Shown piece by piece: positions 5,158-30,430 of a DNA stretch of 64,000 bases. Position 1 is the first letter of the stretch. Every line of letters starts with the position of its first letter. The position numbers and the translations under genes are program-made. The notes beneath the pieces are model-generated. The model made no database searches and was not told the origin of the DNA. It saw only the letters and a program-made list of their open reading frames with translations. The stretch comes from Candidatus Zhuqueibacterota bacterium (GTDB lineage: Bacteria > Zhuqueibacterota > Zhuqueibacteria > JANLFK01 > Oleimicrobiaceae): positions 588,116 to 652,115 of the forward strand of contig JANLFK010000001.1 in the NCBI GenBank assembly GCA_024655945.1. The letters run 5' to 3'.

Positions 5158-5166
5158 CAACAGGTC

Positions 5167-8400: not shown

Positions 8401-10587
8401 GACTGGTTCGAGGCGGACTCGGTGCTGCTCGTGCACGCCTCCCCTTCACCGGGATTTGCCTTTGGCGGCTGGGACGGGGATCTCAAGGGAAACGCCAACC
8501 CTGCTTCGCTTCTCATCGACCGGCCCAAAGAGGTCAGCGCGCTCTTTGTGCCCATGGGCATGGTGCGCGTCACCTCTGAACCAGAAAACCTGCTGGTCAT
8601 CGTGGATGGCACTTCGTGTCTGACGCCGCACGACTTTGTCTGGCAACCCGGTTCGGTGCACACCGTGGAGGCCGTGTCCCCCCAGCAATATGACCGCCTC
8701 AGGCACACCTTCCAGTTCTGGAACGACGGCGGCGCCCGGACCCACTCTGTGACGGTGACCGGACCGGCCGTGTTCGTCGCCCACTACCAGAAGGAGTTTT
8801 TCGTCGCCACGGCGTGTTCGCCTCCTGAGGGAGGGAGCATTGTGCCGCCGCCACCAGGCGCATGGGTTGCCGAGGGCGAAGCTCTTCTGCTCCAGGCCAC
8901 GGCAAATGGCGCCCAGGGTTACCTTTTCGCCGGCTGGAGCGGCGACCTTGTCGGGACAGACAACCCTGACACTCTGCTCGTCACCGAGCCGAAACAGGTC
9001 ACGGCGAACTTTGTGAAGATCGGGCACACCACGATCGCCACCGTACCCGAAGGCCTCTCTATAATCGTGGACGGCACCCGATACACTGCTCCGCAGGAGT
9101 TCGTCTGGGCCCCGGGGTCCAGTCACCTCATCGCCGTGGAGTCGCCACAGGCTGTGGCACCTGGCCTCCGCTACGTCTTCGAGGAGTGGAGCGACCACGG
9201 CGCTCAGAGCCACACCATCACTGCTTCAAGCGGGGCGTTCTACACCGCTTCCTTCCGGGCGGAGTACGCCGTATCCATCGCCGTCGAGCCGCAAGGAGCT
9301 GGCACGGTGGAGCTGTCACCCCCGGGTGGCTGGTACCAGGAAGGCGCTTCCGTAACCCTGACGGCGAGGCCCGACTCGGCGCAAGGCTATGAGTTCGCCC
9401 GGTGGAGCGGCCATTTGACCGGCAGCGACAACCCTGCGACCTTGGCGGTGGACTGCCCAAAGGCGGTGGTGGCGCACTTTGTGGCATCGGACGTGCTGCC
9501 GCCGCTTCTTGTCTATGTCTATCCCCCTGCCGGTGCCACCTTCGTGCCCACGAACACGGCAATTGATTTAGCTATCAGCGACAATCCTGGCGGACGCGGG
9601 CTCGACGCCAAGTCGGTCGTCGTCAGCGTGAACGGCACCACGGTCGTCAACGGCGGCTCGGTCCTGCCAGGACAGCAGGCCACCTTGCGCGTGCGCGACG
9701 GGCTGGCGACGTTGCATTTCGTGCCGGCTGTGCCACTTGCTCCCCAAAGGCCGGTTGAGGTCCGCGTGCAAGCGGCTGACCTGGCCTCGCGCCCGCACAC
9801 CCTCGACACCACCTTCACCTTCACCCTCGGGCCCTATCCGGTGCTCGTTACGGCCATGGAGACGATTGGCCCGCAGGGCGGCTTTGTAACCGACCCCGTG
9901 CACAAGCTGCAGATCAGCGTTCCTGCCGACGCCCTCTCCGACTCGACCACGATGACAATCGCCGTGGCTCCCAGCCCGCCACCGCTTCCGGACTCGCTTC
10001 TGGCTGTGGGTCCCACGTTCTACCTTGGACCGGACGGCCTGAGCTTCCTTGACTCGGTGACGGTGGCGATGCCCTACACCCAGGCCGACCTGGTGGCAAC
10101 AGGCGCCAATGAGCCATCGGCCATGCCGGTGTACCGCTTCGACACTGCACGTTCCCGGTGGGAGAGACTCCGAGTCGGCCGCGTCTACCGCAATTTCCTC
10201 CTGGTGCCGATGCGCAGCTTCTGCTACCTCCTCTTCTGCGGCCCGCGCGGCACGCAGGTGGTCACGGAACAGGCTCCGCTGCCGGAGGTCTTTGCGCTGC
10301 GCGGGGGCTTCCCCAACCCGTTCAACAGTGGTACCACCTTCGTTCTGGACCTCCCTCATCCCTGCGCGGTGAAATTGACCTTCTACGACGCCTCTGGCAG
10401 GAGAGTGGCGAGTGTCGATGCGGGGGTGCTGCCGGCGGGCAGCCATCGCCTGCCTTGGGAGGCCCGCGATGCCCGGGGAGACGCCTTGCCCACCGGCATC
10501 TACCTTTGCCGCGTGGAGGCAGGGGCGCCCGGTGCGTCTCGTTCCCCAGCCTTCATCGCCACCCGCAAAATCGCCTTAGTGCGCTGA
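5416..10587 (+). CDS. giant surface protein: cutinase/PETase-like alpha/beta hydrolase + Ig-like domain + about 10 InlB-B-like repeats + T9SS type-A C-terminal sorting domain
   Basis: Single 1723-aa ORF; N-terminal hydrophobic signal-like segment; nucleophile elbow GHSFGGG (Ser codon 5941-5943), Asp in GAELDAIN, His in GGNHMQF; repeats of type GGTVSP.PPG.W...VTL.A.P.PGY.F..WSG.....NP..L.M..P..V.A.F; C-terminus GGFPNPFNSGTTFVLDL...GIYLCRV. Confidence 0.85.
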   Translation: MDSESTWDGTRGPWRRRPRLVVPPLLGLVHFAAPLLFFLAAPTVLSADELQQYGVGRRDTTFYRAGRTLHTAVYYPATSSGSGAPLNTSGAPYPLLVFAIGKRMQVEHYLSYYEHLAASGYVVMAPQFPDVDSPSAYTWNEDLRDCITQALNARTVPGSVFYQAIDPGKIGLFGHSFGGGTVVGVAADDGRVRVTCAIAPNNPGNYSFNKMPNVHTPIHILGAELDAINSVEAIGRPLYERGNPDKALLVVKGGNHMQFSDYTGFDSVDTPATITRAQQLAITKEHLVNLFDAYLKGRSSARTQLYGTATLTKDSVFLWFETQAASASRLVYVSGNGQSAPPGQLTLLPVVFKVVDAQGNALPRHTVHFQITAGGGSLAGQTWRDLETDADGLVSIYPRLGPSEGVANNLIAVSAYKGTAHLTDSPQTVALSGTTQPLRRIVVHSDPATLTYQVDNVAYSSPQTFLWPTGSSHTVSAPSPQGEAAGTRFVFSSWSDGGALSHAYTVPARDDTLVVTFRTQYLLTLASAYGAPTGGGWYDAGSVASFRVDRHVPAGQARRMSLSGWVGTGSGSYSGPDSAATVTMHGPVTETAIWHTEFFLTTAQNPPAGGTVSPAPPGAWYDSSATVTLVATPAPGYAWGSWSGTINSTVNPLSFVMTGPTAATANFVRLALLTFRTEPPGLTVVVDTVSYVIPRTFSWLPGSVHTVSATSPQAGGAGVQYLFDSWSDGNPRTHNLVTPARDDTLVARFRTQFFLAVQSAHGSPRGQGWYDSGAQAAFSVTTPDSQAGTRHLFQQWTGDFTGTSPSGTVLMDRPKTVTALWKTQHLLTVLSPYCTASGAGWHDEGSQALFRVQPCVVYDSAGTRRVFAGWTGTGPGSYTGPDSTGTIVVQGPVTEVASWQTQYQLTVSSPYGSPVGAGWYPAGATAHFAVTSPEVEGLRRHVFRRWSGHFSGTQPAGTLVMRGPRTVTAEWGDQFYLAITAEPPEGGTVTPQPPGDWFEADSVLLVHASPSPGFAFGGWDGDLKGNANPASLLIDRPKEVSALFVPMGMVRVTSEPENLLVIVDGTSCLTPHDFVWQPGSVHTVEAVSPQQYDRLRHTFQFWNDGGARTHSVTVTGPAVFVAHYQKEFFVATACSPPEGGSIVPPPPGAWVAEGEALLLQATANGAQGYLFAGWSGDLVGTDNPDTLLVTEPKQVTANFVKIGHTTIATVPEGLSIIVDGTRYTAPQEFVWAPGSSHLIAVESPQAVAPGLRYVFEEWSDHGAQSHTITASSGAFYTASFRAEYAVSIAVEPQGAGTVELSPPGGWYQEGASVTLTARPDSAQGYEFARWSGHLTGSDNPATLAVDCPKAVVAHFVASDVLPPLLVYVYPPAGATFVPTNTAIDLAISDNPGGRGLDAKSVVVSVNGTTVVNGGSVLPGQQATLRVRDGLATLHFVPAVPLAPQRPVEVRVQAADLASRPHTLDTTFTFTLGPYPVLVTAMETIGPQGGFVTDPVHKLQISVPADALSDSTTMTIAVAPSPPPLPDSLLAVGPTFYLGPDGLSFLDSVTVAMPYTQADLVATGANEPSAMPVYRFDTARSRWERLRVGRVYRNFLLVPMRSFCYLLFCGPRGTQVVTEQAPLPEVFALRGGFPNPFNSGTTFVLDLPHPCAVKLTFYDASGRRVASVDAGVLPAGSHRLPWEARDARGDALPTGIYLCRVEAGAPGASRSPAFIATRKIALVR
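6700..9500 (+). repeat. tandem protein-domain repeats (InlB B-repeat-like, with Ig-like spacers) inside the giant CDS
   Basis: Recurring about 70-aa modules with conserved W/G/P positions seen at least 10 times in the translation; the DNA copies are divergent. Confidence 0.6.
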
Positions 10588-14189: not shown

Positions 14190-15563
14190 ATGGAAGAACC
14201 TATTCGTGTCCTGATCGCTGACGACAACCGCAACCTCCGCCTGCAGCTGCGCGATATCGCCGAGGAAGCGGGTTACCAGGTGGAAGAGGCAGCTGATGGC
14301 GAGGAGGCGATCGGCCGGCTGTCCGATGCCGATTACGACCTGCTGCTCCTCGACCTGCAGATGCCCAAGCTCTCCGGCCTGCAGGTGCTGGAACGTGCCA
14401 AAGGCCTGGCGCACCCCCCGGAAGTGTTGATCGTTACCGACTATGCCACCGTTGACGCTGCCGTAGAGGCGACGCGCTTAGGGGCATTCGACTTTATCGA
14501 GCGTGACGCCGTGGAACGGCGCCTGCCGGTGAGCATGCGCAATGCGCTGCAAAAGCGGCAGATAGAACCTGAGAACCAGCAGCTGCGCAGCCTTCGCGAG
14601 CCTGGCGAACTGCTGGGCACCAGCGCGGTGATGGCTGCCCTGCGCCAGCGCATTGCCCAGGTGGCCAAAAGCGACAGCACCGTGCTCATTCTCGGCGAGA
14701 GCGGCTCAGGCAAGGAGCTGGTGGCACGGGCCCTCCATCAACAGAGCCCGCGCGCCGCCAAGCCGTTTGTCGTGGTCAACTGCAGCGCCCTGAGCGACAC
14801 GCTGTTGGAGAGCGAGCTCTTCGGGCACGTGAAGGGGGCCTTCACGGGTGCCCACTCCGCCAAGAGGGGCATGTTCGAATGTGCCGATTCCGGCACTATC
14901 TTCCTCGATGAGATCGGCGACATGAGTCCGGCTGCCCAGGCAAAGGTCTTGCATGTGTTGGAGTACGGTGACGTGCACAAGGTGGGCTCCTTAGAGAGCA
15001 TTCGCGTGAACGTGCGCGTGCTGGCTGCAACTAATCGCCAGTTGGAACAGGATGTTGCCGAGGGTCGTTTTCGGCCCGACCTCTACCATAGGCTGAAGGT
15101 AGTCGTCTTGCACGTCCCGCCCTTGCGCGAGCACCCGGAGGATATCCCCCTCCTGGCCAACCACTTCTTGCGCACCTTTTGTGAGTTGAACCGCCGCCCA
15201 CCGGCGACTCTCGCCCCTGAAGCGTTGCAACTTCTCTTCCGCTACCATTGGCCCAACAATATCCGCGAGTTGCGCAACCTCATGGAGAGGGTGTGGATCC
15301 TGTGCAGCTCTGAGGTGGTAAACGCCTGGGAGTTAGAGCAGGTGTGGGAAAAAGAAGAGGGGCAGGTACCGGAGTCCCTGTTCCGTGGTCAGATTGTGCC
15401 GCTTGCGGAGGCCTGGCGCCAGTTTGAGCGGGCGTACATCAGGCGGGCCTTGGTCGCCTGCCGGGGCAACGTCAGCGAAACCGCGCGGCTTCTGCAGATC
15501 AACAGGAGTCATTTGCATGTGAAGATGAGGGAGTTGGGGGTGGGGGGCGGGCCAGCGTCGTAA
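14190..15563 (+). CDS. sigma-54-dependent response regulator (NtrC/Fis family: REC + AAA+ + HTH)
   Basis: REC domain LIADDN...LLLLDLQMP; Walker A GESGSGKE; GAFTGA-type sigma-54 interaction motif (GAFTGA); C-terminal HTH; ATG at 14190 with AGGAG upstream. Confidence 0.9.
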   Translation: MEEPIRVLIADDNRNLRLQLRDIAEEAGYQVEEAADGEEAIGRLSDADYDLLLLDLQMPKLSGLQVLERAKGLAHPPEVLIVTDYATVDAAVEATRLGAFDFIERDAVERRLPVSMRNALQKRQIEPENQQLRSLREPGELLGTSAVMAALRQRIAQVAKSDSTVLILGESGSGKELVARALHQQSPRAAKPFVVVNCSALSDTLLESELFGHVKGAFTGAHSAKRGMFECADSGTIFLDEIGDMSPAAQAKVLHVLEYGDVHKVGSLESIRVNVRVLAATNRQLEQDVAEGRFRPDLYHRLKVVVLHVPPLREHPEDIPLLANHFLRTFCELNRRPPATLAPEALQLLFRYHWPNNIRELRNLMERVWILCSSEVVNAWELEQVWEKEEGQVPESLFRGQIVPLAEAWRQFERAYIRRALVACRGNVSETARLLQINRSHLHVKMRELGVGGGPAS

Positions 15564-16797
15564 ATCGGGGTTGGTTTTGCGCTCTGCCTGCCGCAAAAGG
15601 ACAGGAACGTGAGGAAGTCTGTTGGAAAAGCCCAACACAGTGTGGGAAGAATCCTACAGTAGCGTGACGAACTTGCAGTAAGGTGTGGAAAGAGCCCTTT
15701 GCCTCCTTCTCGACTTCGAGGCCAGGAGGAACCAACGAGAGGGCACGAAGATTGCGTTATGCGATTATCGAGCGGCCTCGATGACCACTTCATCCCTTGT
15801 GAGAAGAGGATCCCAGGATCAGCAAAGGGGAACACTCAACGCTGCAGGAGTCGGCGGCGTTAAGCCAGCGGGTTCTCTTTTGGAGCGGGTTGAAGTGCAT
15901 TATTGGAGGGTCGGCGCCTGATGTTACCCCGAACGGGAAAGCGCTACATTGGGCGTTAGAGTTCGTGAACACTGTGTTCATCATGAGAGAAAGAGCCGCT
16001 CGCTGGCTAAGGTACTACGGTTAGCGGTGAAGCCGAGCTATGAACACGGGCGGGCTTTCTTTCCTCGCCCGATCGGACTCCCCGGGAAGGGGAGTGTTGT
16101 TGGACTGATGACAGTAGGGTTGCTGAGGCCACGGACTTTAGACACCCGCGATTGAGAGTAGGAGTACAGGCAAAGATACCTAACTTCGCAGCATGTTAAC
16201 CCTTGTTGGTGTCCTCTGAGATTCGGGTGGTGTGAAACATGGGGAGAGACACAGGCCCCGAAGGGCATCGGTACCGTACGGGAGCGCCTGCGCGACTGAT
16301 CAGTGAGGTCTTCAGATTCCTTAAACAAGTTGGAAGGAGTAGGAGTGAGACTCACGGCCATGCAGGCGCCGAAGCAGGCATGAGGACGTAACCCGGTTAC
16401 GTCGAGAGTTCCTCCCGGCGCTGCTCACTGGGTGGAACGGGGTGGGAAGTCAAGCCATTTAGAGGCCTCGCGACGATGGATGGACGGGCAGGTACGGCTT
16501 GCAGGTAGGTAGGGACCCACCAATGTGGAAAGAGCAGGAATGGGTGGCAACTCTATGTGGCCCCCCTGCGAGAGAAGGATGCTGTAGCTTCTTCACAGGG
16601 GACCGAGCAGTCAAGTTTGTCTATCAGAACGGGGGACATCTTGTGAAGGCTCCACCTCACGGGTGGAGTATACCCCAAAAGCATGGTGGGCCGCTATCCG
16701 CTGGAGCGGTGGATTGAAGCCTTTCGATGTCCTTACCCTGGAGTGATCCAGATGAGAAACGAGCGAAAATAGAATTGTCAGTCTCCATAACGCACTT
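15564..16797. other. ORF-free, purine-skewed 1.2-kb segment: candidate structured noncoding RNA or heavily decayed gene
   Basis: No ORF above about 110 aa in any frame; plus strand rich in G and A; several GNRA-like loops and clean hairpins (e.g. CTCCCC-GGGAA-GGGGAG at 16078-16094); 12-nt exact repeat TGTGGAAAGAGC at 15684-15695 and 16524-16535; composition differs from flanking genes. Confidence 0.25.
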
Positions 16798-18749
16798 GTG
16801 CGAATTGAGAGTACGAGAAGCCCCCGACGTGCCAAACCTTCGGGCTTGGCCTGGGATGGAAGTTACTTGTGGTTGTGCGACATCAGCGAGAACACCGTGT
16901 GGAAGCTTAGCCGAACCGGCCAGGTGGCGGCCAGAATGTTTGTTCCCGGTACTTATCACACTGGTCTGGAATGGGACGGCCATTCTGCGTGGCTGGTGGA
17001 CGGCGAGGCTGAACTCATCTACGAACTGGACGGCTCTGGCAACACTCGGAACTTCTATCTGCCGCCGGGGACCTTTCCCAGGGATATTGCCTGGGACGGC
17101 AGTGATCTTTGGATTGCAGATGCTGACAACGACAGAATCTACAAGTTGAGAGGTCCCATCATGGGGCCTGAGCCGAGGGCTTCGTTCACGGTAACCCCAA
17201 CGTCCGGTTTCCTGGAGACCCTTTTCCTGGTTGACGCTTCCAGTTCACAAGACCAAGTTACTCCCCTCGCGGACCTCGAGGTTCGGTGGGATTGGGAAAA
17301 CGATGGGGCGTACGACACCGAATACTCCAAGGTCAAGACTGCAAACCATCAGTACGCCTCACCGGGAACCAAGACAATTAGGCTTGAGGTCAAGGATACG
17401 GACGGGTATACCGGCACGACAACAAGAAGCGTCTCAGTAAGCGCGAGGGCCCCTCAGGCTTTCAGCCTAGTTTCTCCGCGATCAGGTGATACCGTTAGAA
17501 CGTACCTGCCCTCATTCAAGTGGCGGACCGCGCGAGACGCTGACCCAGGAGATACGGTGCGCTATTTTGTTCAGTATTCGAAAAGCTCCTATTTCTCCAT
17601 CTTCGATACACTCGCAGCAGGCACCGACACCCCTGCTGCCGTACGTGATTCTTTGCAGCAATTACAGAGGTACTATTGGCGGGTGGAAGCGGTGGATCGC
17701 TGGGGAGCAAAGACCCTGAGCTCTCAAAGTTGGAATTTCCTGGTCGCAGACCTCACGCCCCCCTCTTTCACAATCGGTCTCCTGCAGAATCCCATAATCA
17801 CAGAGGATCTCGATCTGTACGCCATCCCCAACGAGACACTGGATCAGCGCGGGGTTCAGTGTACCGCCAACGGGATCCCTGTTCCTATGTCGGAGCTCGA
17901 CGCTGCGCGTCGAATCTATGTTGGTGATTACCAGCTCTCGGGGGAGCGGAAGACTGGTGGTCATCATGAGAGGCAAAGATGCGATATGGGGAAATGAAGG
18001 TGCCGACAGCCTGTCCATCTCGGTGCAGCTAGTCAAAACAGTACAGGGGGGGGACGATCGCTAGTCTCGATGGGGCCTTGCATGCACAGTTCCCCGCTGG
18101 TTGCCTTCCTTACGACGCTTACGTCTTGGTTCTACAAGCGAACCAGGAACCAGGACGGAGGGAAGGCCTCTGTAGAAGGACAATGGAAAGTGACACAGTC
18201 ATCGCCATTGGGACAAGCTACGGAATTGAGCCCGCAGGACTCCGGTTATCCGACTCTGTGCTGTTGGAGGCCAGTTACTCGGAGAGGGCCTTGGCAGACC
18301 TAGATGAGGAGAGACTAGAGCTTGCGATCAGAGAAAGTGACGGCTGGAGATCTCTCGGCGGTGTAGTGGACAAGAAGACTGACAGAGTGACCTTGCTGGT
18401 CGACCAGCTGGGAGAATACCGTCTGCAGTGGAATCAGAAACGTCGGACGTCAGGGAGTTTTCCTTCGCACTTGGTCCTTTTGCCAAACTACCCCAATCCG
18501 TTCAATCCGACCACTACCCTACATTATGGACTGCCTGAGCGATTTTCGGGCTGGGTGGAGCTGGGTATCTACGACGCCGCTGGGCGCGAAGTGTGTTGCC
18601 TGGTGGATGAGCCTCAGAACCCCGGGTATTATTCTGTCGTATGGGACGGGAGGGATAGCTCTGGTCGGCAGGTGCCAAGCGGAGTGTACTGTTGCCGTCT
18701 GCGGGCAAACAGGCTTTCCATTGCAAGAAAGATGATCTTCCTACGCTAA
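16798..18749 (+). pseudogene. T9SS-type surface protein (WDG beta-propeller blades + PKD domain + type-A C-terminal sorting domain), frame-disrupted and lacking an N-terminal signal
   Basis: Frame 1 16798-17997 (GLAWDGSYLWLCD, GLEWDGHSAWLVD, DIAWDGSDLWIAD; PKD-like WDWENDGAYD), switch to frame 2 near 17940-17960, then to frame 0 at the G8 run 18046-18053; frame 0 continues to the sorting domain LLPNYPNPFNPTTTLHY...GVYCCRL ending at 18749. Confidence 0.55.
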
Positions 18750-18778: not shown

Positions 18779-19459
18779 ATGACAGCCTTCATGCTCAAAC
18801 AGTCGCCTGGACGTGCGGTGTTGATCTGCCTTGTCTGCGTCGTGGCCCTCGCTACCTGCAGCAAAGAGACACCCACGGCACCAAAGAAGGGTCCCGTTAC
18901 ATGGATTGCTGAGGGCTGGAGATACTTCGAGGCGAAGGACTTCGCCGAGGCAGTTAATTGCTTCAGCACTGCACTCAACATGAATCCAAGCGACAGCATC
19001 GCTGCAATCGCGCATTGCGGGTTGGGCTGGAGTCAGGCAAGGCAGCGCGCATACGAGGTAGCTCACAACAATTTCACTTTCTCGGTCCAGAAGGACTCCA
19101 CCACGCCCGGCCCATATGTTGCCGACTCTTACGCCGGCAGGGCTGCAACCTTCTTTCGAATGAACCTCTACAGTGAGGCAATTTCTGACGTGAAGAAGGC
19201 CCTGAGCAGTACCGGCACCTATGAATTCGTTCACGACCGGACAGTGAGATTCACTGACCTTCACTTCTTGATGGCCGAAGCCTACTACCACACTCGTCAG
19301 TACCAAATGGCACAGGAAAAAGTAGACTTCCTTCGTGCCTTGTTTGCTCTTCCTCCGATCAACTGGACTGTAGTCCCCTATATGGTTGATGGTTTGGGGT
19401 ATGGAACTTACCAGGAAGCTCTTCTCAAAGCGATCGAGGGACTTCGGAGCAGAGTGTAG
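18779..19459 (+). CDS. TPR-like repeat lipoprotein
   Basis: ATG at 18779 with GGAGGA upstream; signal peptide with lipobox-like LATCS; helical repeat content; lower GC than flanking genes; TAG stop. Confidence 0.7.
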   Translation: MTAFMLKQSPGRAVLICLVCVVALATCSKETPTAPKKGPVTWIAEGWRYFEAKDFAEAVNCFSTALNMNPSDSIAAIAHCGLGWSQARQRAYEVAHNNFTFSVQKDSTTPGPYVADSYAGRAATFFRMNLYSEAISDVKKALSSTGTYEFVHDRTVRFTDLHFLMAEAYYHTRQYQMAQEKVDFLRALFALPPINWTVVPYMVDGLGYGTYQEALLKAIEGLRSRV

Positions 19460-19843: not shown

Positions 19844-21383
19844 ATGAGAGAACCCAGTGGTCCATTCCGTCTTTTGATCATTTTGCTGGTATTTGTTGGC
19901 ATTGGCGCCCACGCCGGAGAAATCCGCCCCGTGAGCCCGGCCACCGTCCTGGGGCAGGTGGGGGTCGAGTTCGACGTGTATGTGCGTGTGGATCAGGTAA
20001 GCAATCTCTTCGGGGTCAGTTTCGTTTTGACCTTGGACAACGGCTATCTGGAGGCGATTTCCGAAAACCCCGAGTCCTTCATGGGCAGTGACGTGGTATT
20101 TTTGGGCCAGCACAATAATGCCGCCGGCACAGTGGCCATCGGGATTTCCCGCAAAGCTGGGCAGGGAGGCGTCAGCGGCACAGGCAATGTCGCACGGGTG
20201 CGAGAGTTGTGCAAGGGGCCACGCAGGACAGAGTCCTCCGGTTCGGGCTCGCCTCCGTGGAAGCCATCGACCCCTTGGGCGCGTCGATTGTGCTCGCTCC
20301 AGGTGAAGCCACGACTACGCTGTCCAGGTTGGTCACGGTGTGGCCGGGCGATGCTGATGATAACGGCACTGTGAACATCTTCGACATTAACCCGATCGTT
20401 GCCAATCACTGGGGCCGGACGGGGCCGCAGCGGCCCAATGCCTCTGTAAACTGGACGGGCCAGGTATGCCCACCATGGACACCGCCTGACGCAACCTACC
20501 CGACACTAACGGCGACGGCCTGGTGAGCATTTTCGACATTAATGCCGTACCGGTCAACTTCGGCAAGACTCACCCCGGAACCGCCGGGGCCCCACTCCCG
20601 ACACCGGTGGAACCCCAGGTCGTTGCGCTTGGCAAGGAAAGCGGGGTCACCTCACCGCCCATCGCGGCAAAGGGCCCGCAGCAGGTAGACAAGAACCAGG
20701 AATTCTGGGTAGACATCGAGGTTGGAGCCTTAGGCAATCCCGTCACCAACCTCAAGGTGGTCTCTTTCGAACTGACCTACACGAACACTGCCATAGTTGA
20801 CTACCTCAGTTACGAGGTGGGACCTTTCTTGACGGGCGCGATAGCAACCGTGATTCCGGATGACCCCAACGGGAAGGTAAGCGCGTCGGTCTATCGAACC
20901 ACTGGCAGCAACTCCGGCTACGGGGTAGTCTTGCGGCTGAAGTTTCGCACAAGCGCACAGGCCGCAGCGGGGCAGACGGTAAGCTTTGCCTTCGCCCAGG
21001 TGCTAGCCAACAGGGAGGACGGTAGCGTTCAGCCCTTGTCGCCCATTGGTCAGGTGGTCACCATTCAACCTGGCAGCGGCATACGCGCTGACGACTTCAC
21101 GCCCACAGAGTTCGAGCTGGTGCAGAACTACCCCAACCCCTTCAATCCTGGGACGGTCATAGAGTACCGTCTCCCGCAGGCCAGCAGGGTGACGCTGCAA
21201 GTGTACAACTTGGCTGGAGTAAAGGTGGCCTCGCTGCGGGACGGGATGGAGAGTGCGGGTCGTCATTCGGTGGTCTGGGATGGCCGCGACGAAATGGGCA
21301 GGCCTGTTGCAGCGGGGGTATACATGTGCAGGCTGGTGGCCGGAACCTACGACAAGACCATCAGAATGCTGCTGCTCAGGTAG
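19844..21383 (+). pseudogene. cohesin-like / dockerin-like / cohesin-like protein with T9SS type-A sorting domain, carrying two frame disruptions
   Basis: ATG at 19844 (AAAGAGG upstream), signal MREPSGPFRLLIILLVFVGIGAHA; cohesin-like VSFVLTLDNGYLEAI; dockerin repeats GDADDNGTVNIFDINPIV (frame 1) and DTNGDGLVSIFDINAVPV (frame 0); second cohesin-like VVSFELTYTNTAIVDYL; C-terminus LVQNYPNPFNPGTVIEY...GVYMCRL. Reading requires frame 2 -> 1 -> 0. Confidence 0.55.
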
Positions 21384-21682: not shown

Positions 21683-23850
21683 TCACCACCCCACCTCCGC
21701 CACCGCCCGCCAGTGCCGGCCGGGCATGGGGTAGCCGGCGGCCACCTGGTACTGCACGTCGAAGAGGTTGTCCATTCCTGCCCGGAGGTGCCAGGTCACG
21801 CCCCAGAAGGGCACGCGCACGCCCACATTGGCATCGGCCACCGTGTGCGCAGGAAGGCGCCGCGTGTTGGCTTCGTCCGTGTAGCGCGACCCCACATAGG
21901 AGGCAGTGACATGGCCGTAGAACGGGCGACCCTGAAAACCAGCCCGCAACGAGGCCATGTGTTCCGGCCGGTAGATGAGCCGCTTGCCCTGAAGACCAGG
22001 TATGCCACCAGTATCTACCGCCCGCAGATGGCTGTAGTTCGCCTCAAGGATGAGGCGCTGCGCAAACCCCTCCCACTTGAGCCGCAGCTCCTGCCCCGTA
22101 ATCTCCGCCCTGCTCACATTGGCAGGCGACCACTTGTAACTCAGCGGGTCCATCCCCCAGACGATGAGGTCGCGGGCCCAGCGTCGGTACAAGCTGAGCT
22201 CGCCGTGCACGCGTCCGGCAGCCGGCACCCTCACGCTCAGCCCACCATCAATTTCCGTGGTCCGTTCCGGCTTCAGGTTGGGATTGCCCACGGTAAAGGC
22301 GTCCTCCGGCCAGTAGAGGTCGTTGAATGTCGGTGCGCGGAAGGAGCCACCCACATTGCCGCGTATCGCTACGTGGCTGTGCCGCACCCTGCTCAAAATT
22401 ATCCCCACCTTCGGACTGGTGACGAAACCAACCCCCTCGTAGTGGTCGATGCGCGCCGTCGGCAGAAGGTTGGCCTGCCACTCGGGGCGACCGAGCAAGC
22501 CTTTCCAGGCGGCATCGGCCTGGGCAAAGGCGCCGAAAGACTCCCGCGCGTGGGTACCCAACGAGGTACCTCGCGAGCGCTCGTTCAGATAGCTGGCCCC
22601 CAGGGACAGCACCTTGTCCTGTGCCAAGGGCAGGTCACCCTGCAAAGAGGCACCGGCGCTGACGCCTTTGTTGTCGGCATTCGACGGCCAGAAGGGATTG
22701 GGGTCAACATAGCGGGTGGCGAGCTCGTGCCGGAACCCTGTCGCCTGTACGTGCACCTTGCCGCCGAGGCTCGTCTCCACACCCAGCTGCACGCGGCGGC
22801 TGTCGTCGGTCTGCTTTGCCTCGGGACTCGGAAAGGCCAAGGATCCAGGCGCACCCCGCTCGGCATGGGACCACTCGCCGGAAAGGGTGAGGCGTGTGAG
22901 TGGAGAAGACTGCCAGCTCACCTTGCCGAAGAGTTCATCCATGGCAAACGAATTGTTGATGCGCCTGCTCTCCCTTTCCCTGTCCGTGGCTGGGTCCTTG
23001 GTGCGGTAAATAAAGTCGCCGTCGCTGCGGGCGCGGCTTGCGGCCACCAGCAGGCCGACATCGCCCTGCTGGTGACTTGCGCCAAAGTGCGCCGAGCGGC
23101 TGCCCCAAGAGCCCATGCCCGTGGCAAGCGACAGCTGAGGCCTCACTCCTCCCCGCGGCGCGCGTGTGATGATGTTCACCACGCCGGCGGCGGCATCCGC
23201 CCCATAGAGCGAGGAGAGCCCGCTACGCACAAATTCAATGCGCTCCACCGCAGTGAGCGGCAGCAGGCCGAGATCGTACCCCCCGGCTAACGGCGAATTG
23301 AGGCGCGCGCCATCCCAGAGGATGAGCACCTGTTCCGCCGAGGAGCCGCGCACCGACAGCGACTTCATGGCCGCATCCGAGCCATAGCTTTTCACAAAGG
23401 CCCCGGCCACAGGCCGCAAGGCATCAGCCACGGTGCTGCCGTTGACCATCTCTATGTCCGCGGCGGAGACCACCTCCGCCGACACGGGCAACTCCCAGCT
23501 CAGCGATCTGCCACGCTTGCCGGTGACCATCACTTCCTCAAGTTCAATGATGGTCGGCACCAGGCGCACGGACACCTGTTGGGCGCCGCGATCCGCAACG
23601 CGGAGCGTGAGCAGCTGCGGCGCATAGCCCATGTAGGAAACGCGAAGCTGGTACGTTCCTGCCCGCAGCTTGGGAAGCACGAAACGGCCCATTTCGTCGG
23701 TGGCGGCGCCCTGCCCGCCTGGCATAACACTGACGTTGGCGCCGGCGAGCGGTTTGCCGGTGGTGTGGTCCACCACCAGGCCGGTCACTTGCGCAAGGGC
23801 ACTCGAACAAAGGACCGCCACACAGAGGAGCGTCAGGAAAAGCGTCTTTT
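21683..23850 (-). CDS. btuB: TonB-dependent receptor (CarboxypepD_reg-like + plug + beta-barrel), probably cobalamin receptor BtuB-like
   Basis: ATG at 23850 with GGGAGG upstream; signal MKTQKTLFLTLLCVAVLCSSALAQ; plug motifs, C-terminal aromatic AVAEVGW; lies downstream of a cobalamin riboswitch. The btuB assignment is by context. Confidence 0.8.
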
Positions 23851-24421
23851 GCGTCTTCATCTTCGCCTCCCGTGGAACCCGGTTCACTGCTGTCTCTCTC
23901 CTACCTAACACTCCGATGGCCGCCGGCACCAGCAGCGCAAAGATTGCGGTGTTGACGGCGGCGTGGGTCAGGTAGAACACCGCCCCATAGGCGTAGGCTC
24001 CGAGCAAAGCCGGGAGGGTGAGCCGGGTCATCACGAGAAAGCCCACCGTGGTGAGAAAGTCGAAGGTCACCGTGAGGATGAAGCCGCTGGCCGCTAAAAC
24101 CAGCACTTGTGGCCAGTGGATTTTGTGCCGCCGCGCCCTCCTGCCGATCAGCCCCCCCACAAACCCCGCCAGGCCCATCCCCAAGACCTGGCTGACCAGC
24201 AGAGTGACAGAGGAGATGCCGTAGGGGTTGATGGCCGCGTAGAGAAGCTCGCCGACCATGGCCGTGGCCAGTCCTCGCCCGGCACCAAGGAAGGCGCCGG
24301 CGACAAAGGCAGTGGCGGTCACCAGCTCCACGTTGGGCACGCTGCTGAGCAGGTAGCCCAAGGCGACCATCAACCCGGCGAACATGGCCATGCTGGCCAA
24401 AGAAACGGTGCCCGGTCTCAC
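23851..24421 (-). CDS. ECF-transporter S-component-like small membrane protein (possibly cobalamin-specific); 3' end undefined
   Basis: Hydrophobic multi-TM translation MAMFAGLMVALGYLL...LLVPAAIGVLGRR; GTG at 24421 with GAGGAGGAA upstream (alternative ATG 24391); no stop codon before the btuB start, same frame. Confidence 0.55.
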
Positions 24422-24514: not shown

Positions 24515-24569
24515 CGCACGTCGCGCACGCTACGCACCGACACCTCACCCGCGGAGGCTCACACGGTGA

Positions 24570-24760
24570 TACCGACTCCGGCAGGTTTCCTGGCTCTCCC
24601 GACCCTGGTCGCCTTCCCATCCAAGCTGCGGACAGTGGCACCGTTGACCAGGGCACCGGCGCATCGACTCATGCGCCCGGGATCACAGTAGCGGGGCTGC
24701 GACGGACTTGCACCGTCTTCCCTTTTCCTCCCCGGCGGGGAGCACCGGAATCTACGCCCA
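24570..24760 (-). promoter_or_regulatory. cobalamin (AdoCbl) riboswitch
   Basis: Minus strand reads AAGGGAAGACGGTGCAAGTCCGTCGCAGCCCCGCTACTGTGA ... GCCACTG ... GGGAAGGC ... AGCCAGGAAACCTGCC, matching the conserved core and B12 box of the cobalamin riboswitch family. Confidence 0.8.
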
Positions 24761-24783
24761 TATCGCCAAAGAGCGACGGTGCA

Positions 24784-26460: not shown

Positions 26461-27536
26461 TCAGGGATGCTGCGCTAAGAACTCGGTCACTGCCGTGGCA
26501 AACTCATCTGGCGCATCGGCAAAGAGAAAGTGGCCGGCCTGCGGCATGGTGCGCGGCTCCGCATGAGGGAGCAGTTGCGCGTACGTGGCGGTGGCCGCCT
26601 CCGGCTAAATGTCCATCCCTCCGTGGAGAATGAGCGCCGGTGCGGTGACCCGCTGCAAAGCCGCGCGGTAGTCGTGCTTCTTGCCCATGCTGAGATACTT
26701 CGCCTGCACCATCCAACCGCCGTTGCCGTGGAAGCGAAGCGTGCTGGGCACCGGCATGCCCTTCGCCTTTGCGGCAGCAAGGTAGAACCTGGTGAAACGG
26801 GAGTTCAGGCCGATCATCTCCCCCTCACTGCGCGAGAAGAGGTGCTTGAAATCGAGATACTCCTTGAGGAAAGTAGCATAGTCGCTCTTCAGCTCTGCTG
26901 GCAGGAGCGCGCCCACCTCGTCCAGGAGGTTGCCCTCGCCGGGAAACACGAGGAGCTGCGCCGGTGCAATCAACACCAGGGCACGCACATGTTCGGGAAA
27001 CTCCGCCGCGTACAGGGTGGCGAGAAAGGCGCCGATGGAGTGTCCGACCAGGATCAACCTATCCACGCCCAGGATGCGACGGATGCGTTCGACGTCAGCC
27101 ACCTGCGCACCTATGCCGAGGGCCCTATCGAGGTTGAGCATGTTGCGATAGAGGCTCTTGTCGGATAGCCGATCCACTGGCCGCGTTGAGTTGCCGCAGC
27201 CGCGCTGGTGGTAATAGATAACGCGATACTGCGCCGCCAGCTGATGCAGACCAGGTGGTGGGGGAGGTAGGGATAGCCAGGGCCACCGTGCAACACCAGA
27301 ACCTGCGAGCCAGACCCTTCTTCGAAGAAGAAGAGCTTCACATTCGGCTCAACCAGCCAGAGGTTTGCGCCTGCCGTTTGCGGCGGCGGAGCCAGTGGCG
27401 CCCGCAGGTTCTTTGCCTGCCGCACCATTCCTGGTCGGTACAAAGGCTTTCCGGCGGAAACGACAAAGAGCACCCCAGCAACCACCACTACCACAAGCAC
27501 CCCCGCCAGCAGCACCAGCATTACTCTCTTGGCCAC
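26461..27536 (-). pseudogene. membrane-anchored alpha/beta hydrolase (proline iminopeptidase-like) with one frameshift and one in-frame TAG
   Basis: N-terminal part VLVLHGGPG (track ORF 27111..27536); body LAAQYRVIYYHQRGCGNS...LVGHSIGAFLA...ILHGGMDI in another frame (switch at a C5 run near 27260-27264); TAG at 26607..26605; conserved C-terminus PEAATATYAQLLPHAEPRTMPQAGHFLFADAPDEFATAVTEFLAQHP continues in frame to TGA at 26461. Confidence 0.6.
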
Positions 27537-27548
27537 GGTTTCTCCTCC

Positions 27549-29384
27549 TCAATCCACAAAGCTCCAGTTGACGCCCCAGGCAAAAAAGCGCGTGGGCATG
27601 GGATATCCCCAGGTGGTCTGGTACGCGCGCCCAAGAAGGTTTTCCATCCTCACCCAGATGACGGCGTTGTGCATGATCCGCGCCCTGGCTTCGGCGCCAG
27701 GGACGGCCACTGGTGGCAGCCTGTGCTCGCTCTCCGCGTCCCACCGCTGGCCAAGGAGCTGGCAGAAGAGTTGCGCGGTGACCTCGAGGTCGGAGTTGAA
27801 CAGGGAAAGGCCGTAACCTGCGGCCAGCCAGCCGTGCCAACTCGGCAGTTGCGGTAGGCGTTCGTCGCCAAGCACGGGGGACTGCGCCACGACCCAGCAG
27901 CGCAGGAAGGAACGCTTGACCGGCTCCCCGAAGAGGCTCGCCATCACTCCGGCCGACCGATGCCTTCCGGCCGCTTGCGTGAACAAGAGCGAGTCCCCTG
28001 AGGCTCCAAAACGCGCGTCTATCTCCCGTGCGCCGTGCCGCACAAAGCCGCCGACGTAGAACGCCGCGTGAGGGCCCTGGGACGACATGCCTGCCACCAC
28101 TCTGTGCACAGCCCACGGGCGAAGGCCCTGAGTGCCCCACACGCGCTGCCGGCCGTATCGCTCGGCAAAGCTGGGAAAAAAGACCTCGCGGCTGCCGTGC
28201 ACCTCCACCCAGGAATTTGTGCTCAGGCGCCGGACAACCTGGAGGGACGGGGCAAGAAAGAAGCGCGTATCCTGGCGCGCCATACCATCGCAAAGGAGCT
28301 GGAGGTGCCAGGACTTGCCAGGTTCGCTGCGCAAGCCGCACCGCAGGCTCCCCTCCACGTCCGTGTGGCCGGCCATAACCTCACTCTCCACCTGGGCATA
28401 GCGCACAAAGGCGCCCACGAGGCCGGCAGCCTTCTGCCCGCCCACGCTCGCCGATGACGCTAAGGTGAGGACATGGCTTTCTTCCTGCCAGCGCAGCCGC
28501 AATGGGTAGTCGTGAAACTCGCGCCGCAGGTCTGTGTGCACGATGCTTGCCGCGACGTCAACAGGGCGCCCAAGGGTGCCCCGCAGCGTGAGCGCGTGGT
28601 CTATCCTGCGATCTTTGCGCACCGGGTGGACCGCCATGCGCAGGGCGAGTTGGCGTTGGTCCGGCGTTTCCTCTGTCTGCGACTTTGTGAGGAGGGCCAC
28701 ATAGTTTGCCGAGCAGTTGTCCGCCAGTGCCGCGCTTGCGGTTGCCCTGATCCTTTGTGCATCATACTCCTGCCGCAGGGCAAAGCCCTCGAAGCCAGAG
28801 AGCAGGGCACCCGCCAACACGTCGGCCTTGGGGCTCACCTTCATGCCAAGGGCGACGTCCACGGCGTGTACGCCCCAGTCGCCGTTCTCATAGCCGACAT
28901 GGGAAAGTGGCCGCTGCCCGGTGTGACGGCGCGCTGTGCAGGAAAGCGTCCCCCCTGCCAGACCACGGGGCGTTCCCCACCCGGCAGCCGTGGCCTCGAG
29001 GCGGATCGCCGACAGCCAGTAGGTGGGAAGCATGTGCACATCAGCCGTGCCGGAGATGGGGTCGCGGAGGTCTAATCCGTCCACGAAGAGACCGGTCTCC
29101 CGCGGCGTACTCCCCAGCGCGGAAAAGGTCAGCCACTGGCCGGGTGCCCCTCTGTCGTGGAGAAAGATGAAAGGCAGCTCGGTCAGGACCTGTGCAGGCC
29201 TGGGGCGCAAGAGCGCCACCCCCTCGAGCGAGAGCGGCTGCCGCATCGGCAGGCTGTCCTGGGAAGCCACGGTCCCGGCCGCCCCACCCTGGGCTCCAGA
29301 ATCGGCAGACCACCCCAGCACCAGCAGTGTCACCAGAGCCCACAACGGCACGGTCCACATGGGCATTTGGACGCGGCTCATCAT
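27549..29384 (-). CDS. TonB-dependent receptor-like outer-membrane protein (plug + barrel)
   Basis: ATG at 29384 with AAGGGGAG upstream; signal MMSRVQMPMWTVPLWALVTLLVLGWSADSGAQ; plug-like GLFVDGLDLRDPISGTADVHMLP; C-terminus FAWGVNWSFVD. Confidence 0.65.
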   Translation of the reverse strand: MMSRVQMPMWTVPLWALVTLLVLGWSADSGAQGGAAGTVASQDSLPMRQPLSLEGVALLRPRPAQVLTELPFIFLHDRGAPGQWLTFSALGSTPRETGLFVDGLDLRDPISGTADVHMLPTYWLSAIRLEATAAGWGTPRGLAGGTLSCTARRHTGQRPLSHVGYENGDWGVHAVDVALGMKVSPKADVLAGALLSGFEGFALRQEYDAQRIRATASAALADNCSANYVALLTKSQTEETPDQRQLALRMAVHPVRKDRRIDHALTLRGTLGRPVDVAASIVHTDLRREFHDYPLRLRWQEESHVLTLASSASVGGQKAAGLVGAFVRYAQVESEVMAGHTDVEGSLRCGLRSEPGKSWHLQLLCDGMARQDTRFFLAPSLQVVRRLSTNSWVEVHGSREVFFPSFAERYGRQRVWGTQGLRPWAVHRVVAGMSSQGPHAAFYVGGFVRHGAREIDARFGASGDSLLFTQAAGRHRSAGVMASLFGEPVKRSFLRCWVVAQSPVLGDERLPQLPSWHGWLAAGYGLSLFNSDLEVTAQLFCQLLGQRWDAESEHRLPPVAVPGAEARARIMHNAVIWVRMENLLGRAYQTTWGYPMPTRFFAWGVNWSFVD

Positions 29385-30430
29385 GCGCGCTCCCCTTTTG
29401 GCGAAGTGGCAAGCTGCCCGCATGCCGCTTGGATGTCGTCCCCCTTGCTACAGCGCACGATGACCGGCGCCTTCAAGGGTGCTAGCCCCTGCCGAAATGC
29501 CTCAATGCGCGCGGCGGTCGGCCGGCGGAAGAGCTCATCGGTGGGATTGTAGGGGATGAGGTTCACCTTGCAGGGCACCTGCTTCAGCAAGTCGCGCAGA
29601 CGCTTAGCGTCCTCGGCCGAGTCGTTTACCCCTGCCAAGAGCACGTACTCGAAGGTCGGTCTGCGACCTGAGCGGCGGTGGTAGAAAATCACCGCGTTGA
29701 GGAGCTCCTGCAGCGGATAGCGCTCTGCCACCGGCATGAGCGCCCGGCGTTGTTCGTCAGTGGTGGCATTGAGGGAAATCGCCAGCTTGAAGCGGTGCCC
29801 CTCTTCGGCCAGCCTCATGATCCCGGGCACCCAGCCAGCGGTGGAAATGACGATGCGCCGATGGCCGATGGCTATGCCGCGCTCATGGCGCACAAGCTCG
29901 CAGGCAGCAATCACCTTATCATAGTTGAGCAGCGGCTCGCCCATGCCCATGAGCACCAGGTTGCTCACCTCCTCCCCGACCTCGCGCTCGACGAGCAGCA
30001 CCTGGTCAACAATCTCCCCTGCCGACAGGTTGCGACGGAAACCCAGGCGTCCGGTGGCGCAGAAACGGCACCCTAAGGCGCAACCGACCTGCGTGGAAAC
30101 ACAGAGGGTGTGGCGCCCTGCCTCGCGAATGTACACGCTTTCGATGCGCTCGCCATCGCCGAGCTCGAACAAGAACTTGCGCGTGCCTCCGTCCCGTGAG
30201 GATACCACCGCCACAATCTTCAGGAGGCCAATCTCGGCAACTTCGGCCAGGCGCAGCCGCAAAGGCTTAGAGATGTCGGTCATTTCGGCAAAGTCGCGCG
30301 CTCGCTTGTTGTAGAGCCAAGCGAACAGCTGCCGCCCGCGGAAAGGCTTCTCGCCTATGCTGGAGGCAAACTGCTCCAGCTCCTCCATGCTCATGCCGAC
30401 AAGTTGTCTCTTGCCTGGCTCAGTCTCCAT
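29381..30430 (-). CDS. rlmN: 23S rRNA (adenine2503-C2)-methyltransferase RlmN (radical SAM)
   Basis: CX3CX2C radical-SAM motif GCALGCRFCATG, LVLMGMGEPLLNYD, 349 aa; 4-bp overlap with the downstream gene. Confidence 0.9.
   Translation of the reverse strand: METEPGKRQLVGMSMEELEQFASSIGEKPFRGRQLFAWLYNKRARDFAEMTDISKPLRLRLAEVAEIGLLKIVAVVSSRDGGTRKFLFELGDGERIESVYIREAGRHTLCVSTQVGCALGCRFCATGRLGFRRNLSAGEIVDQVLLVEREVGEEVSNLVLMGMGEPLLNYDKVIAACELVRHERGIAIGHRRIVISTAGWVPGIMRLAEEGHRFKLAISLNATTDEQRRALMPVAERYPLQELLNAVIFYHRRSGRRPTFEYVLLAGVNDSAEDAKRLRDLLKQVPCKVNLIPYNPTDELFRRPTAARIEAFRQGLAPLKAPVIVRCSKGDDIQAACGQLATSPKGERA

What the first reader, a model, noticed from the sequence alone, without database searches (positions are those of the whole stretch)
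26461..27536. Alpha/beta hydrolase with a frameshift and an in-frame TAG inside the conserved C-terminal region
The conserved sequence ILHGGMDI-[TAG]-PEAATATYAQLLPHAEPRTMPQAGHFLFADAPDEFATAVTEFL continues in frame across the TAG at 26607..26605, and the N-terminal HGGPG segment is in a different frame from the GHSIG core. TAG is a genuine stop elsewhere in the window (18779-19459 and 19844-21383 both end in TAG), so recoding is unlikely; a nonsense substitution plus indel (pseudogene) or base errors are the likely explanations.
Basis: seen in the sequence. Interest (0 to 1): 0.4.

Follow-up and report, generated by a model that had tools for sequence, protein, structure and literature searches.

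The report
Recently broken alpha/beta hydrolase pseudogene
A membrane-anchored alpha/beta hydrolase gene in an uncultured KSB1-group bacterium has been knocked out by a one-base deletion and a Gln-to-stop mutation; it is an ordinary young pseudogene, one of three decaying genes in this stretch, not a case of unusual decoding.

Summary
On the minus strand, 27536..26461 holds a 1076-nt gene, one base shorter than its intact 1077-nt, 358-aa ortholog (P0121/L002, 91% aa identity, same gene order). One base is missing at the C5 run 27264..27260, just after the HGGPG motif. In addition, CAG (Gln, found in all homologs examined) has become TAG at 26607..26605. That is two codons after the putative catalytic Asp and upstream of the catalytic His.

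TAG ends 6 of 40 predicted genes in the window, and the lesions are absent from orthologs, so recoding is very unlikely. Several results favour a genuine, young pseudogene over base errors:
- About 52 kb of other coding sequence is unbroken, including 85 G/C runs of 5 or more bases.
- Two nearby genes (16798-18749 and 19844-21383) also carry two frameshifts each. Such clustering has P = 0.0045 under random placement.
- The window's copy has 13 derived amino-acid changes against 1 in its intact sister. Neighbouring genes show 54:36 (Fisher p = 0.017).
- A related lineage independently carries TGG to TGA in the same gene, in two non-identical assemblies.

Read-level confirmation was not possible. 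This is an ordinary finding of low interest.

The parts
26461..27536 (-). Whole disrupted alpha/beta hydrolase gene (1076 nt; the intact ortholog is 1077 nt and 358 aa)
   Evidence: The repaired product matches Pfam Abhydrolase_1 at E=1.8e-32.
27542..27548 (-). Shine-Dalgarno-like GGAGGAG, 5 nt upstream of the GTG start. The upstream gene's TGA stop is at 27551..27549, so the hydrolase is probably co-transcribed with rlmN and the 611-aa outer-membrane-like gene.
   Evidence: Read directly from the sequence. The same gene order occurs in L002 and L003.
27265..27536 (-). N-terminal segment in the first frame: GTG start, hydrophobic membrane anchor (LVLLAGVLVVVVVAGVLFVV) and the HGGPG motif
   Evidence: tblastn P0121 residues 27-91 map to 27458-27264 in frame -3.
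27260..27264 (-). Frameshift site: a C5 run where one base is missing relative to orthologs. The Gly/Ala codon of YL(G/A)PPPG is lost.
   Evidence: Nucleotide alignment, CTC-CCCCACC against CTCGGGCCTCC (L002) and CTTGGTCCTCT (L003).
26608..27259 (-). Core segment in the second frame, running up to the premature stop
27031..27045 (-). Nucleophile elbow GHSIG (Ser codon 27039..27037). All close homologs have GHSFG, so F168I is a change derived on the window branch.
   Evidence: The PDB alignment to 1azw places it on GGSWG.
26611..26613 (-). Putative catalytic Asp codon (GAC in HGGMDI)
   Evidence: It aligns with the Asp of HGRYD in proline iminopeptidase 1azw.
26605..26607 (-). In-frame TAG replacing a conserved Gln codon (CAG), a C-to-T transition
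   Evidence: Gln is present at this position in all homologs shown.
26461..26604 (-). C-terminal segment after the TAG, still in frame. It contains the putative catalytic His (AGHF, codon 26532..26530) and the normal TGA stop at 26463..26461.

Best explanation
This is a genuine, recently inactivated pseudogene of a membrane-anchored alpha/beta-fold serine hydrolase from the neighbourhood of the S33 proline-iminopeptidase family. The source records label the organism candidate division KSB1. Two independent lesions disable the gene. The first is a 1-nt deletion in a short C run immediately after the HGGPG motif, which separates the membrane anchor and HGGPG from the rest of the protein. The second is a CAG-to-TAG transition two codons after the putative catalytic Asp, which removes the segment carrying the catalytic His. 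None of the resulting fragments (141 aa, about 190-214 aa, and an untranslated tail) can carry a complete Ser-Asp-His triad, so no active enzyme is made. Shown here: both lesions, their positions relative to conserved motifs, the existence of intact single-frame orthologs, the clustering of lesions, and the lineage-specific excess of replacements. Inferred: that the lesions are in the organism's DNA and not consensus errors, and that the product is inactive. The gene sits in a stretch (about 15.5-27.5 kb) where two other genes for exported proteins are also decaying. The same hydrolase has been knocked out independently in a sister lineage. Together these suggest the function became dispensable in this group.
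For: - Lesions verified by translation, nucleotide alignment and tblastn.
- An intact syntenic ortholog exists: P0121/L002, 358 aa, 91% aa identity, with Gly and Gln at the lesion sites. More than 100 homologs of 350-365 aa are single-frame.
- The truncated products are what the public records annotate: P0005 (214 aa) under two NCBI accessions on two contigs, the longest 761,593 bp, and P0122 (178 aa) on a 631,779-bp JGI contig.
- The assembly is not error-prone: about 52 kb of intact ORFs contain 60 G/C5, 22 G/C6 and 3 G/C7 runs with no frame break, and other genes give full-length domain matches.
- Lesions cluster. Six lesions fall in only 3 of 41 genes. P = 0.0045 under random placement across the window and 0.013 within the local region.
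- Constraint looks relaxed on the window branch only: 13 derived amino-acid changes against 1 in L002, compared with 54:36 in four neighbouring genes (Fisher p = 0.017). With four outgroups the count is 13:4, p = 0.049. The derived changes include F168I in the nucleophile elbow and L328P.
- A parallel, independent TGG-to-TGA nonsense mutation occurs at Trp275 of the ortholog in L003 and L004. These two consensus sequences differ at 9 of 5799 positions and both carry the stop.
Against: - No reads were available, so the lesions are not confirmed at read level.
- The JGI contig is byte-identical to the window over 23.3 kb, so it is not independent evidence. I could not establish whether the two NCBI records derive from different data.
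- The frameshift lies in a C homopolymer, the classic context for sequencing indels.
- Overall dN/dS against L002 is still low (0.096), and there is no excess of changes at the most conserved family columns (7 vs 7). Any decay is therefore very recent, and the relaxed-selection signal rests on small counts.
Confidence: 0.8

Rival explanations
1. The gene is intact in the organism, and both lesions are consensus errors of sequencing or assembly: a homopolymer deletion plus a miscalled base.
For: The frameshift is a 1-nt loss in a C run. The contigs are very long for a metagenome (632 and 762 kb), which would fit long-read data where such errors occur. The coding sequence is otherwise well preserved, with dN/dS 0.096 and no extra changes at highly conserved columns. 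The only second copy I could read is identical to the window and so is not independent.
Against: There are 85 G/C runs of 5 or more bases in 52 kb of other ORFs, and none is broken. Two random lesions land in the same gene with P = 0.035, and the window's six lesions land in 3 or fewer genes with P = 0.0045. A substitution error that happens to create a stop is a different error class from a homopolymer indel. The 13:1 excess of derived replacements cannot come from two miscalls. The same gene is truly broken in a relative.
Confidence: 0.12
2. The deposited consensus represents one strain, and an intact allele coexists in the population. The pseudogene would then be polymorphic, or the consensus would be a chimera of strains.
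For: Metagenome assemblies collapse strains. L003 and L004 show that closely related variants coexist in such samples (9 SNPs in 5.8 kb).
Against: I could recover no alternative allele. Two metagenome scans, with patterns that tolerate both alleles, found nothing. The records found for this species carry the truncated products.
Confidence: 0.05
3. Programmed recoding: a -1 ribosomal or transcriptional slip on the C run, plus read-through or reassignment of UAG (for example pyrrolysine or a suppressor tRNA), still yields a full-length enzyme.
For: A -1 slip of tRNA-Pro on CCCCC would restore a 358-aa frame reading YLPPPPGLHQL (read from the sequence). The organism does carry one recoding system, Sec (tRNA-Sec and SelB).
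Against: Neither lesion is conserved. L002, L003 and all other homologs are single-frame with CAG/Gln. In the zero frame the site reads C CCC CAC, which is not an X XXY YYZ heptamer. The downstream RNA is no more structured than shuffled sequence (z = -0.94). TAG terminates 6 of 40 genes. No tRNA with a CUA anticodon and no Pyl genes are present in the window. The Sec system decodes UGA, not UAG.
Confidence: 0.01

Closest known systems
Proline iminopeptidase / prolyl aminopeptidase (MEROPS S33; PDB 1azw from Xanthomonas, 1qtr from Serratia; the Thermus 'PIP-related protein' 2yys)
   Same: Both have the alpha/beta hydrolase fold, the HGGPG motif, a G-x-S-x-G nucleophile elbow, and Asp and His at the aligned positions. 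These are the best PDB matches (E = 2.4e-14 and 2.2e-12). JGI names many homologs 'proline iminopeptidase'.
   Different: Scores are far below the curated NCBIfam cut-offs: TIGR01250 91.5 vs 167.65 bits, TIGR01249 53 vs 259.75 bits. This family has an N-terminal membrane anchor and a longer lid region. Its substrate is unknown. The copy in the window is disrupted.
Intact orthologs in the same clade (P0121 = MBC7187328.1 on JACIZP010000220.1; also P0001, P0002, P0004)
   Same: 66-91% amino-acid identity, 358 aa, and the same rlmN / 611-aa outer-membrane-like gene / hydrolase / (convergent) beta-lactamase-family neighbourhood.
   Different: They are single-frame with Gly/Ala and Gln at the two lesion sites. 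The window copy has lost one base and gained a TAG.
Ordinary bacterial pseudogenes formed by frameshift and nonsense mutations
   Same: Disabling lesions at conserved positions, more than one lesion per gene, functional orthologs in relatives, neighbouring intact genes, and signs of relaxed constraint.
   Different: Nothing essential differs. This one is young: only two lesions, and dN/dS is still low.
The ortholog in GCA_900174565.1 (L003) and GCA_900175145.1 (L004)
   Same: It is the same gene in the same neighbourhood and is also inactivated by a transition that creates a stop.
   Different: The lesion is different and independent: TGG to TGA at Trp275, with no frameshift. Amino-acid identity to the window copy is about 72%.

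Membership tests
Alpha/beta hydrolase fold (Pfam PF00561 Abhydrolase_1) | Profile match above the curated gathering score | tested here: met
   The repaired 358-aa product scores 113.4 bits against a cut-off of 25.8, E = 1.8e-32, covering profile positions 3-245 of 245.
Alpha/beta hydrolase fold (Pfam PF00561 Abhydrolase_1) | Ser-Asp-His triad in the canonical order (nucleophile elbow G-x-S-x-G, acid after strand 7, His after strand 8) | tested here: met
   GHSIG, HGGMD and AGHF align with GGSWG, HGRYD and SGHS of 1azw. The triad residue numbers of 1azw are recalled from the literature and were not checked here. In the window the three residues are not in one translatable ORF.
Proline iminopeptidase (NCBIfam TIGR01249 / TIGR01250, MEROPS S33) | Score at or above the curated whole-protein cut-off | tested here: not met
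   TIGR01250 scores 91.5 vs 167.65 bits, TIGR01249 53 vs 259.75 bits, and NF045945 56.5 vs 400 bits. The protein resembles the family but cannot be filed as a member.
Proline iminopeptidase (NCBIfam TIGR01249 / TIGR01250, MEROPS S33) | Release of N-terminal proline from peptides | not testable with these tools
   This needs an enzyme assay on an intact ortholog.
Pseudogene (disabled copy of a functional gene) | Frame-disrupting or nonsense lesions relative to intact orthologs, at positions needed for function | tested here: met
   A 1-nt deletion after HGGPG, and CAG to TAG between the catalytic Asp and His.
Pseudogene (disabled copy of a functional gene) | Relaxed purifying selection on the affected lineage | tested here: inconclusive
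   Derived replacements are 13:1 against 54:36 in neighbours (p = 0.017) and 13:4 with four outgroups (p = 0.049). However, pairwise dN/dS is still 0.096, and there is no excess at highly conserved columns.
Pseudogene (disabled copy of a functional gene) | Lesions present in the organism's DNA (read-level or independent-assembly support) | tested here: inconclusive
   The same truncated product appears in two NCBI records and one JGI record, but the JGI contig is byte-identical to the window. Reads were not available.
Programmed ribosomal frameshifting / stop-codon recoding | The recoding site is conserved among orthologs | tested here: not met
   All orthologs are single-frame with a sense codon.
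Programmed ribosomal frameshifting / stop-codon recoding | Slippery heptamer with a downstream stimulatory structure, or dedicated UAG-decoding machinery | tested here: not met
   The site C CCC CAC is not X XXY YYZ. The downstream fold has z = -0.94. There is no tRNA-CUA in the window, and TAG ends 6 of 40 genes. The whole genome could not be searched for Pyl genes.

The most novel reading that the evidence does not exclude
The loss may be adaptive or niche-driven and not just neutral decay. The same membrane-anchored hydrolase has been knocked out independently in two KSB1 lineages (window: frameshift plus TAG; L003/L004: TGA). In the window it lies within about 12 kb of two decaying genes for T9SS-secreted surface proteins. 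This could point to ongoing, possibly selected, shedding of a set of envelope or exported functions.
Probability: 0.15. Interest if true: 0.3.

Novelty: already known. Interest (0 to 1): 0.12.

Why it matters
It matters mainly for annotation. The locus should be flagged as one pseudogene and not as two or three short 'alpha/beta hydrolase' proteins, which is how public records currently list it. It should not be taken as evidence for TAG recoding or programmed frameshifting. It also gives a small, concrete example of recent and parallel gene loss in an uncultured phylum. It shows that this otherwise clean assembly contains a local patch of decaying genes for exported proteins.

Tried and rejected
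- Two scans of the metagenome collection used patterns spanning the TAG site (degenerate, to match both alleles) and a segment identical in the window and L002. Both returned nothing.
- The genome-collection scan with P0121 returned only relatives at about 45-55% identity from other phyla. It missed the window's own genome because each peptide word differs by one residue.
- Exact look-ups of the truncated products P0005 and the 141-aa GTG-start fragment found no record. Look-ups of RlmN and the 136-aa fragment displayed only the JGI contig, so I could not read the 761,593-bp NCBI contig.
- A literature search for 'Oleimicrobiaceae' found nothing.
- Counting changes at family-conserved columns showed no difference between the window and its intact sister. 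Only the outgroup-polarised test showed asymmetry.
- An Rfam scan at permissive threshold and a repeat search of the ORF-free stretch 15563-16846 found nothing informative.
- Pyrrolysine, suppressor and phase-variation readings were considered and rejected. TAG is a normal stop, the lesions are not conserved, and a C5 run is too short for a typical contingency locus.

Full report
**1. The observation**

From the GTG at 27536, one frame reads MAKRVMLVLLAGVLVVVVVAGVLFVVSAGKPLYRPGMVRQAKNLRAPL...SQVLVLHGGPGYPYLPHHLV and then runs into nonsense. A GGAGGAG Shine-Dalgarno-like sequence precedes this start, which lies 13 nt after the stop of the upstream gene. A second frame reads ...PPPPGLHQLAAQYRVIYYHQRGCGNSTRPVDRL...LILVGHSIGAFLATLYAAEFPEHVRALVLIAPAQ...RFHGNGGWMVQAKYLSMGKKHDYRAALQRVTAPALILHGGMDI, then TAG at 26607..26605, then PEAATATYAQLLPHAEPRTMPQAGHFLFADAPDEFATAVTEFLAQHP, and finally TGA at 26463..26461.

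**2. What the gene is**

A conceptually repaired 358-aa product matches Pfam Abhydrolase_1 over the whole profile (113 bits, E = 1.8e-32). It resembles proline iminopeptidases but scores far below NCBIfam's curated cut-offs.

The best solved structures are proline iminopeptidase 1azw (E = 2.4e-14) and the Thermus PIP-related protein 2yys. In those alignments GHS(F/I)G lies on the nucleophile elbow, the Asp of HGGMD lies on the Asp of HGRYD, and the His of AGHF lies on SGHS. The identification of these 1azw residues as its catalytic triad rests on my recollection of the literature.

Homologs are abundant: 1382 hits, typically 352-365 aa at about 50% identity, from Chloroflexota, KSB1, Planctomycetota, Acidobacteriota and others. 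All shown homologs have an N-terminal hydrophobic anchor. So this is a widespread, membrane-anchored, S33-like serine hydrolase of unknown substrate.

**3. The lesions at nucleotide level**

The closest intact ortholog is P0121 (MBC7187328.1, labelled Calditrichota/KSB1-like) on contig JACIZP010000220.1 (L002). It has 358 aa, 91% amino-acid identity and about 88% nucleotide identity. Its gene order is the same: MoxR, rlmN, a 611-aa outer-membrane-like gene, the hydrolase, then a convergent beta-lactamase-family gene.

A three-way nucleotide alignment shows two lesions:
- **Deletion.** The window gene is 1076 nt against 1077 nt in L002. The window has CTC-CCCCACC where L002 has CTCGGGCCTCC and L003 has CTTGGTCCTCT. 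One base of the Gly/Ala codon in YL(G/A)PPPG is missing, which leaves a C5 run at 27264..27260.
- **Nonsense.** The window has ATT TAG CCG where L002 has ATC CAG CCG and L003 has TTG CAG CCG, a C-to-T transition. Gln is present at this position in every homolog inspected.

tblastn gives the same picture objectively. P0121 residues 27-91 map to frame -3, and residues 96-358 map to frame -2.

Functionally, the frameshift cuts the protein immediately after HGGPG. The TAG lies two codons after the putative catalytic Asp and about 25 codons before the catalytic His. No fragment can therefore hold a complete triad.

**4. Is TAG or the frameshift decoded?**

This is very unlikely, for the following reasons:
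- Of 40 predicted intact genes, 26 end in TGA, 8 in TAA and 6 in TAG.
- The window encodes tRNA-Sec and SelB, but that system decodes UGA. No tRNA with a CUA anticodon and no Pyl genes are in the window.
- Neither lesion is conserved in any ortholog.
- The shift site in the zero frame is C CCC CAC, which is not a tandem-slippage heptamer.
- The 93 nt downstream fold no better than shuffled sequence (z = -0.94).

**5. Real mutation or sequencing error?**

Reads are not available, so the evidence here is indirect.

*Public records.* The truncated products are what the public records annotate. P0005 (214 aa, ending ...GGMDI and starting just after the frameshift) exists under two NCBI accessions on two contigs, the longest 761,593 bp. 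P0122 (178 aa) sits on a 631,779-bp JGI contig. However, the JGI contig is byte-identical to the window across all 23.3 kb that I could read. It is therefore the same consensus and not independent support. I could not retrieve the other contig.

*Assembly quality.* A codon-usage gene map shows about 52 kb of uninterrupted ORFs, including proteins of 1703, 981, 912, 831, 794 and 782 aa. These ORFs contain 60 G/C runs of 5, 22 of 6 and 3 of 7 with no frame break. The genes I scanned give full-length domain matches.

*Clustering.* The window contains two more multiply broken genes close by.
- 19844-21383 (+) encodes a cohesin/dockerin/cohesin/T9SS-sorting protein that runs through three frames. 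Its conceptual 511-aa product aligns over residues 52-511 with the single-frame homolog P0124 (E = 8e-138). Many homologs cover 90-97% of it. The source genome annotates only the last 286 aa.
- 16798-18749 (+) encodes a PKD/T9SS protein. tblastn with P0243 maps it to frames +1, +2 and +3 in succession. It also lacks the first ~125 residues of that homolog.

That makes six lesions in 3 of 41 genes. Simulation gives P = 0.0045 for so few genes being hit by random placement. Restricted to the 16.8-27.5 kb region, where three intact genes are interleaved, P = 0.013. Two random lesions fall in the same gene with P = 0.035. Multiple hits per gene are what is expected once a gene is dead, and not what is expected from random errors.

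*Selection.* Pairwise dN/dS against L002 is 0.096, within the range of neighbouring genes (0.03-0.25). Changes at family-conserved columns are equal in the window and P0121 (7 vs 7 at 95% or higher). The inactivation must therefore be recent relative to the split from L002 (dS about 0.43).

Polarising the differences shows an asymmetry. With L003 as the outgroup, 13 replacements are derived on the window branch and 1 on the L002 branch. Four neighbouring genes pooled give 54:36 (Fisher p = 0.017). With four outgroups the hydrolase counts are 13:4 (p = 0.049). The derived changes include F168I in the otherwise invariant GHSFG elbow and L328P just before the His loop. Two miscalled bases cannot generate this pattern.

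*Parallel loss.* In the about 72%-identical ortholog on FWPU01000023.1 (L003, a 505-kb contig), the conserved Trp codon of GNGGWMVQ is TGA. This splits the gene into calls of 274 aa and 90 aa. The 5.8-kb contig FWWM01032160.1 (L004) differs from L003 at 9 of 5799 positions and carries the same TGA. That lesion is therefore shared by two distinct consensus sequences. Two of the nine differences lie in the hydrolase, both nonsynonymous and both downstream of the stop. The numbers are too small to test, but they point in the expected direction.

**6. Verdict**

The best explanation is a genuine, young pseudogene, with confidence about 0.8. The main rival is consensus error in an intact gene, at about 0.12. 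It is kept alive by the homopolymer context of the frameshift, the very long contigs (possibly from long reads) and the lack of read-level data. A polymorphic allele is possible, at about 0.05. Programmed recoding is at about 0.01.

**7. Comparison with what is known, and novelty**

The protein works like an S33-type alpha/beta serine hydrolase. It is a member of the alpha/beta-hydrolase fold family, but it fails the curated proline-iminopeptidase thresholds, so it should not be named as one.

A gene disabled by a frameshift and a nonsense mutation is entirely ordinary. Public databases already list the fragments as short 'alpha/beta hydrolase' proteins. The only mildly interesting aspects are the independent knock-out of the same gene in a sister lineage and the local patch of decaying exported-protein genes. 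Interest is low, at about 0.12.

Noticed in passing
window 19844-21383 (+): A second broken gene, encoding a cohesin / dockerin-repeat / cohesin / T9SS C-terminal sorting-domain protein. It runs through three frames, with junctions near 20200 and 20500. Single-frame homologs (for example P0124, 556 aa) align across both junctions. The public annotation keeps only the last 286 aa (P0123).
   Followed up: yes
window 16798-18749 (+): A third broken gene, encoding a PKD-domain / T9SS sorting-domain protein. It maps in frames +1, +2 and +3 in succession, with junctions near 17942 and 18040. It lacks about 125 N-terminal residues compared with homolog P0243 (768 aa).
   Followed up: yes
window 15563-16846: A 1.28-kb stretch with no credible ORF on either strand. 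It has lower GC (56-58% against about 62%) and strongly positive GC skew (0.12-0.17). There was no Rfam hit even at E <= 1, no tRNA and no notable repeats. It may be the fully decayed 5' part of the PKD gene or other dead sequence. I did not exclude an undescribed non-coding RNA.
   Followed up: partly
window ~10.6-21.6 kb: This segment (histidine kinase with FG-GAP repeats, sigma-54-type response regulator, the ORF-free stretch, the two broken T9SS-cargo genes and a TPR lipoprotein) seems absent from the syntenic region of relative L003. There the 1720-aa PETase-like gene lies about 650 nt from the TonB-dependent receptor. It is a lineage-specific insertion or deletion, and part of it has lower GC.
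   Followed up: partly
window 5062-5158 (+) and 2064-4208 (+): A tRNA-Sec (anticodon TCA; Rfam 75 bits and ARAGORN) lies next to a SelB selenocysteine-specific elongation factor gene, so the organism decodes UGA as Sec in selenoproteins.
   Followed up: partly
window 24563-24764 (-): A cobalamin riboswitch (Rfam RF00174, 99 bits, full length) lies upstream of the TonB-dependent receptor gene 21683-24421 (-). This probably marks a BtuB-like, B12-regulated outer-membrane transporter.
   Followed up: no
window 5416-10587 (+): A 1723-aa protein combines an N-terminal PETase-like / dienelactone-hydrolase-like alpha/beta hydrolase domain with four Flg_new_2 repeats, Ig-like domains and a FlgD_ig/T9SS C-terminal domain. 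It is a large secreted polyester or lipid hydrolase candidate, and it is conserved in L003 (1720 aa).
   Followed up: no
L003 6001-7098 and L004 3507-4604: The ortholog of the hydrolase in GCA_900174565.1 / GCA_900175145.1 carries an independent TGG-to-TGA nonsense mutation at Trp275. It is annotated there as two proteins of 274 and 90 aa. The second call starts at the Met codon immediately after the stop.
   Followed up: yes
window 27549-29423 (-): The 611-624-aa gene immediately upstream of the hydrolase has no Pfam hit. However, it has a signal-peptide-like N-terminus, a Plug-like segment and a C-terminal ...NWSF, so it looks like a divergent TonB-dependent-receptor-like outer-membrane protein. 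It is the fastest-evolving gene of the cluster (dN/dS about 0.25) and is conserved next to the hydrolase in L002 and L003.
   Followed up: no
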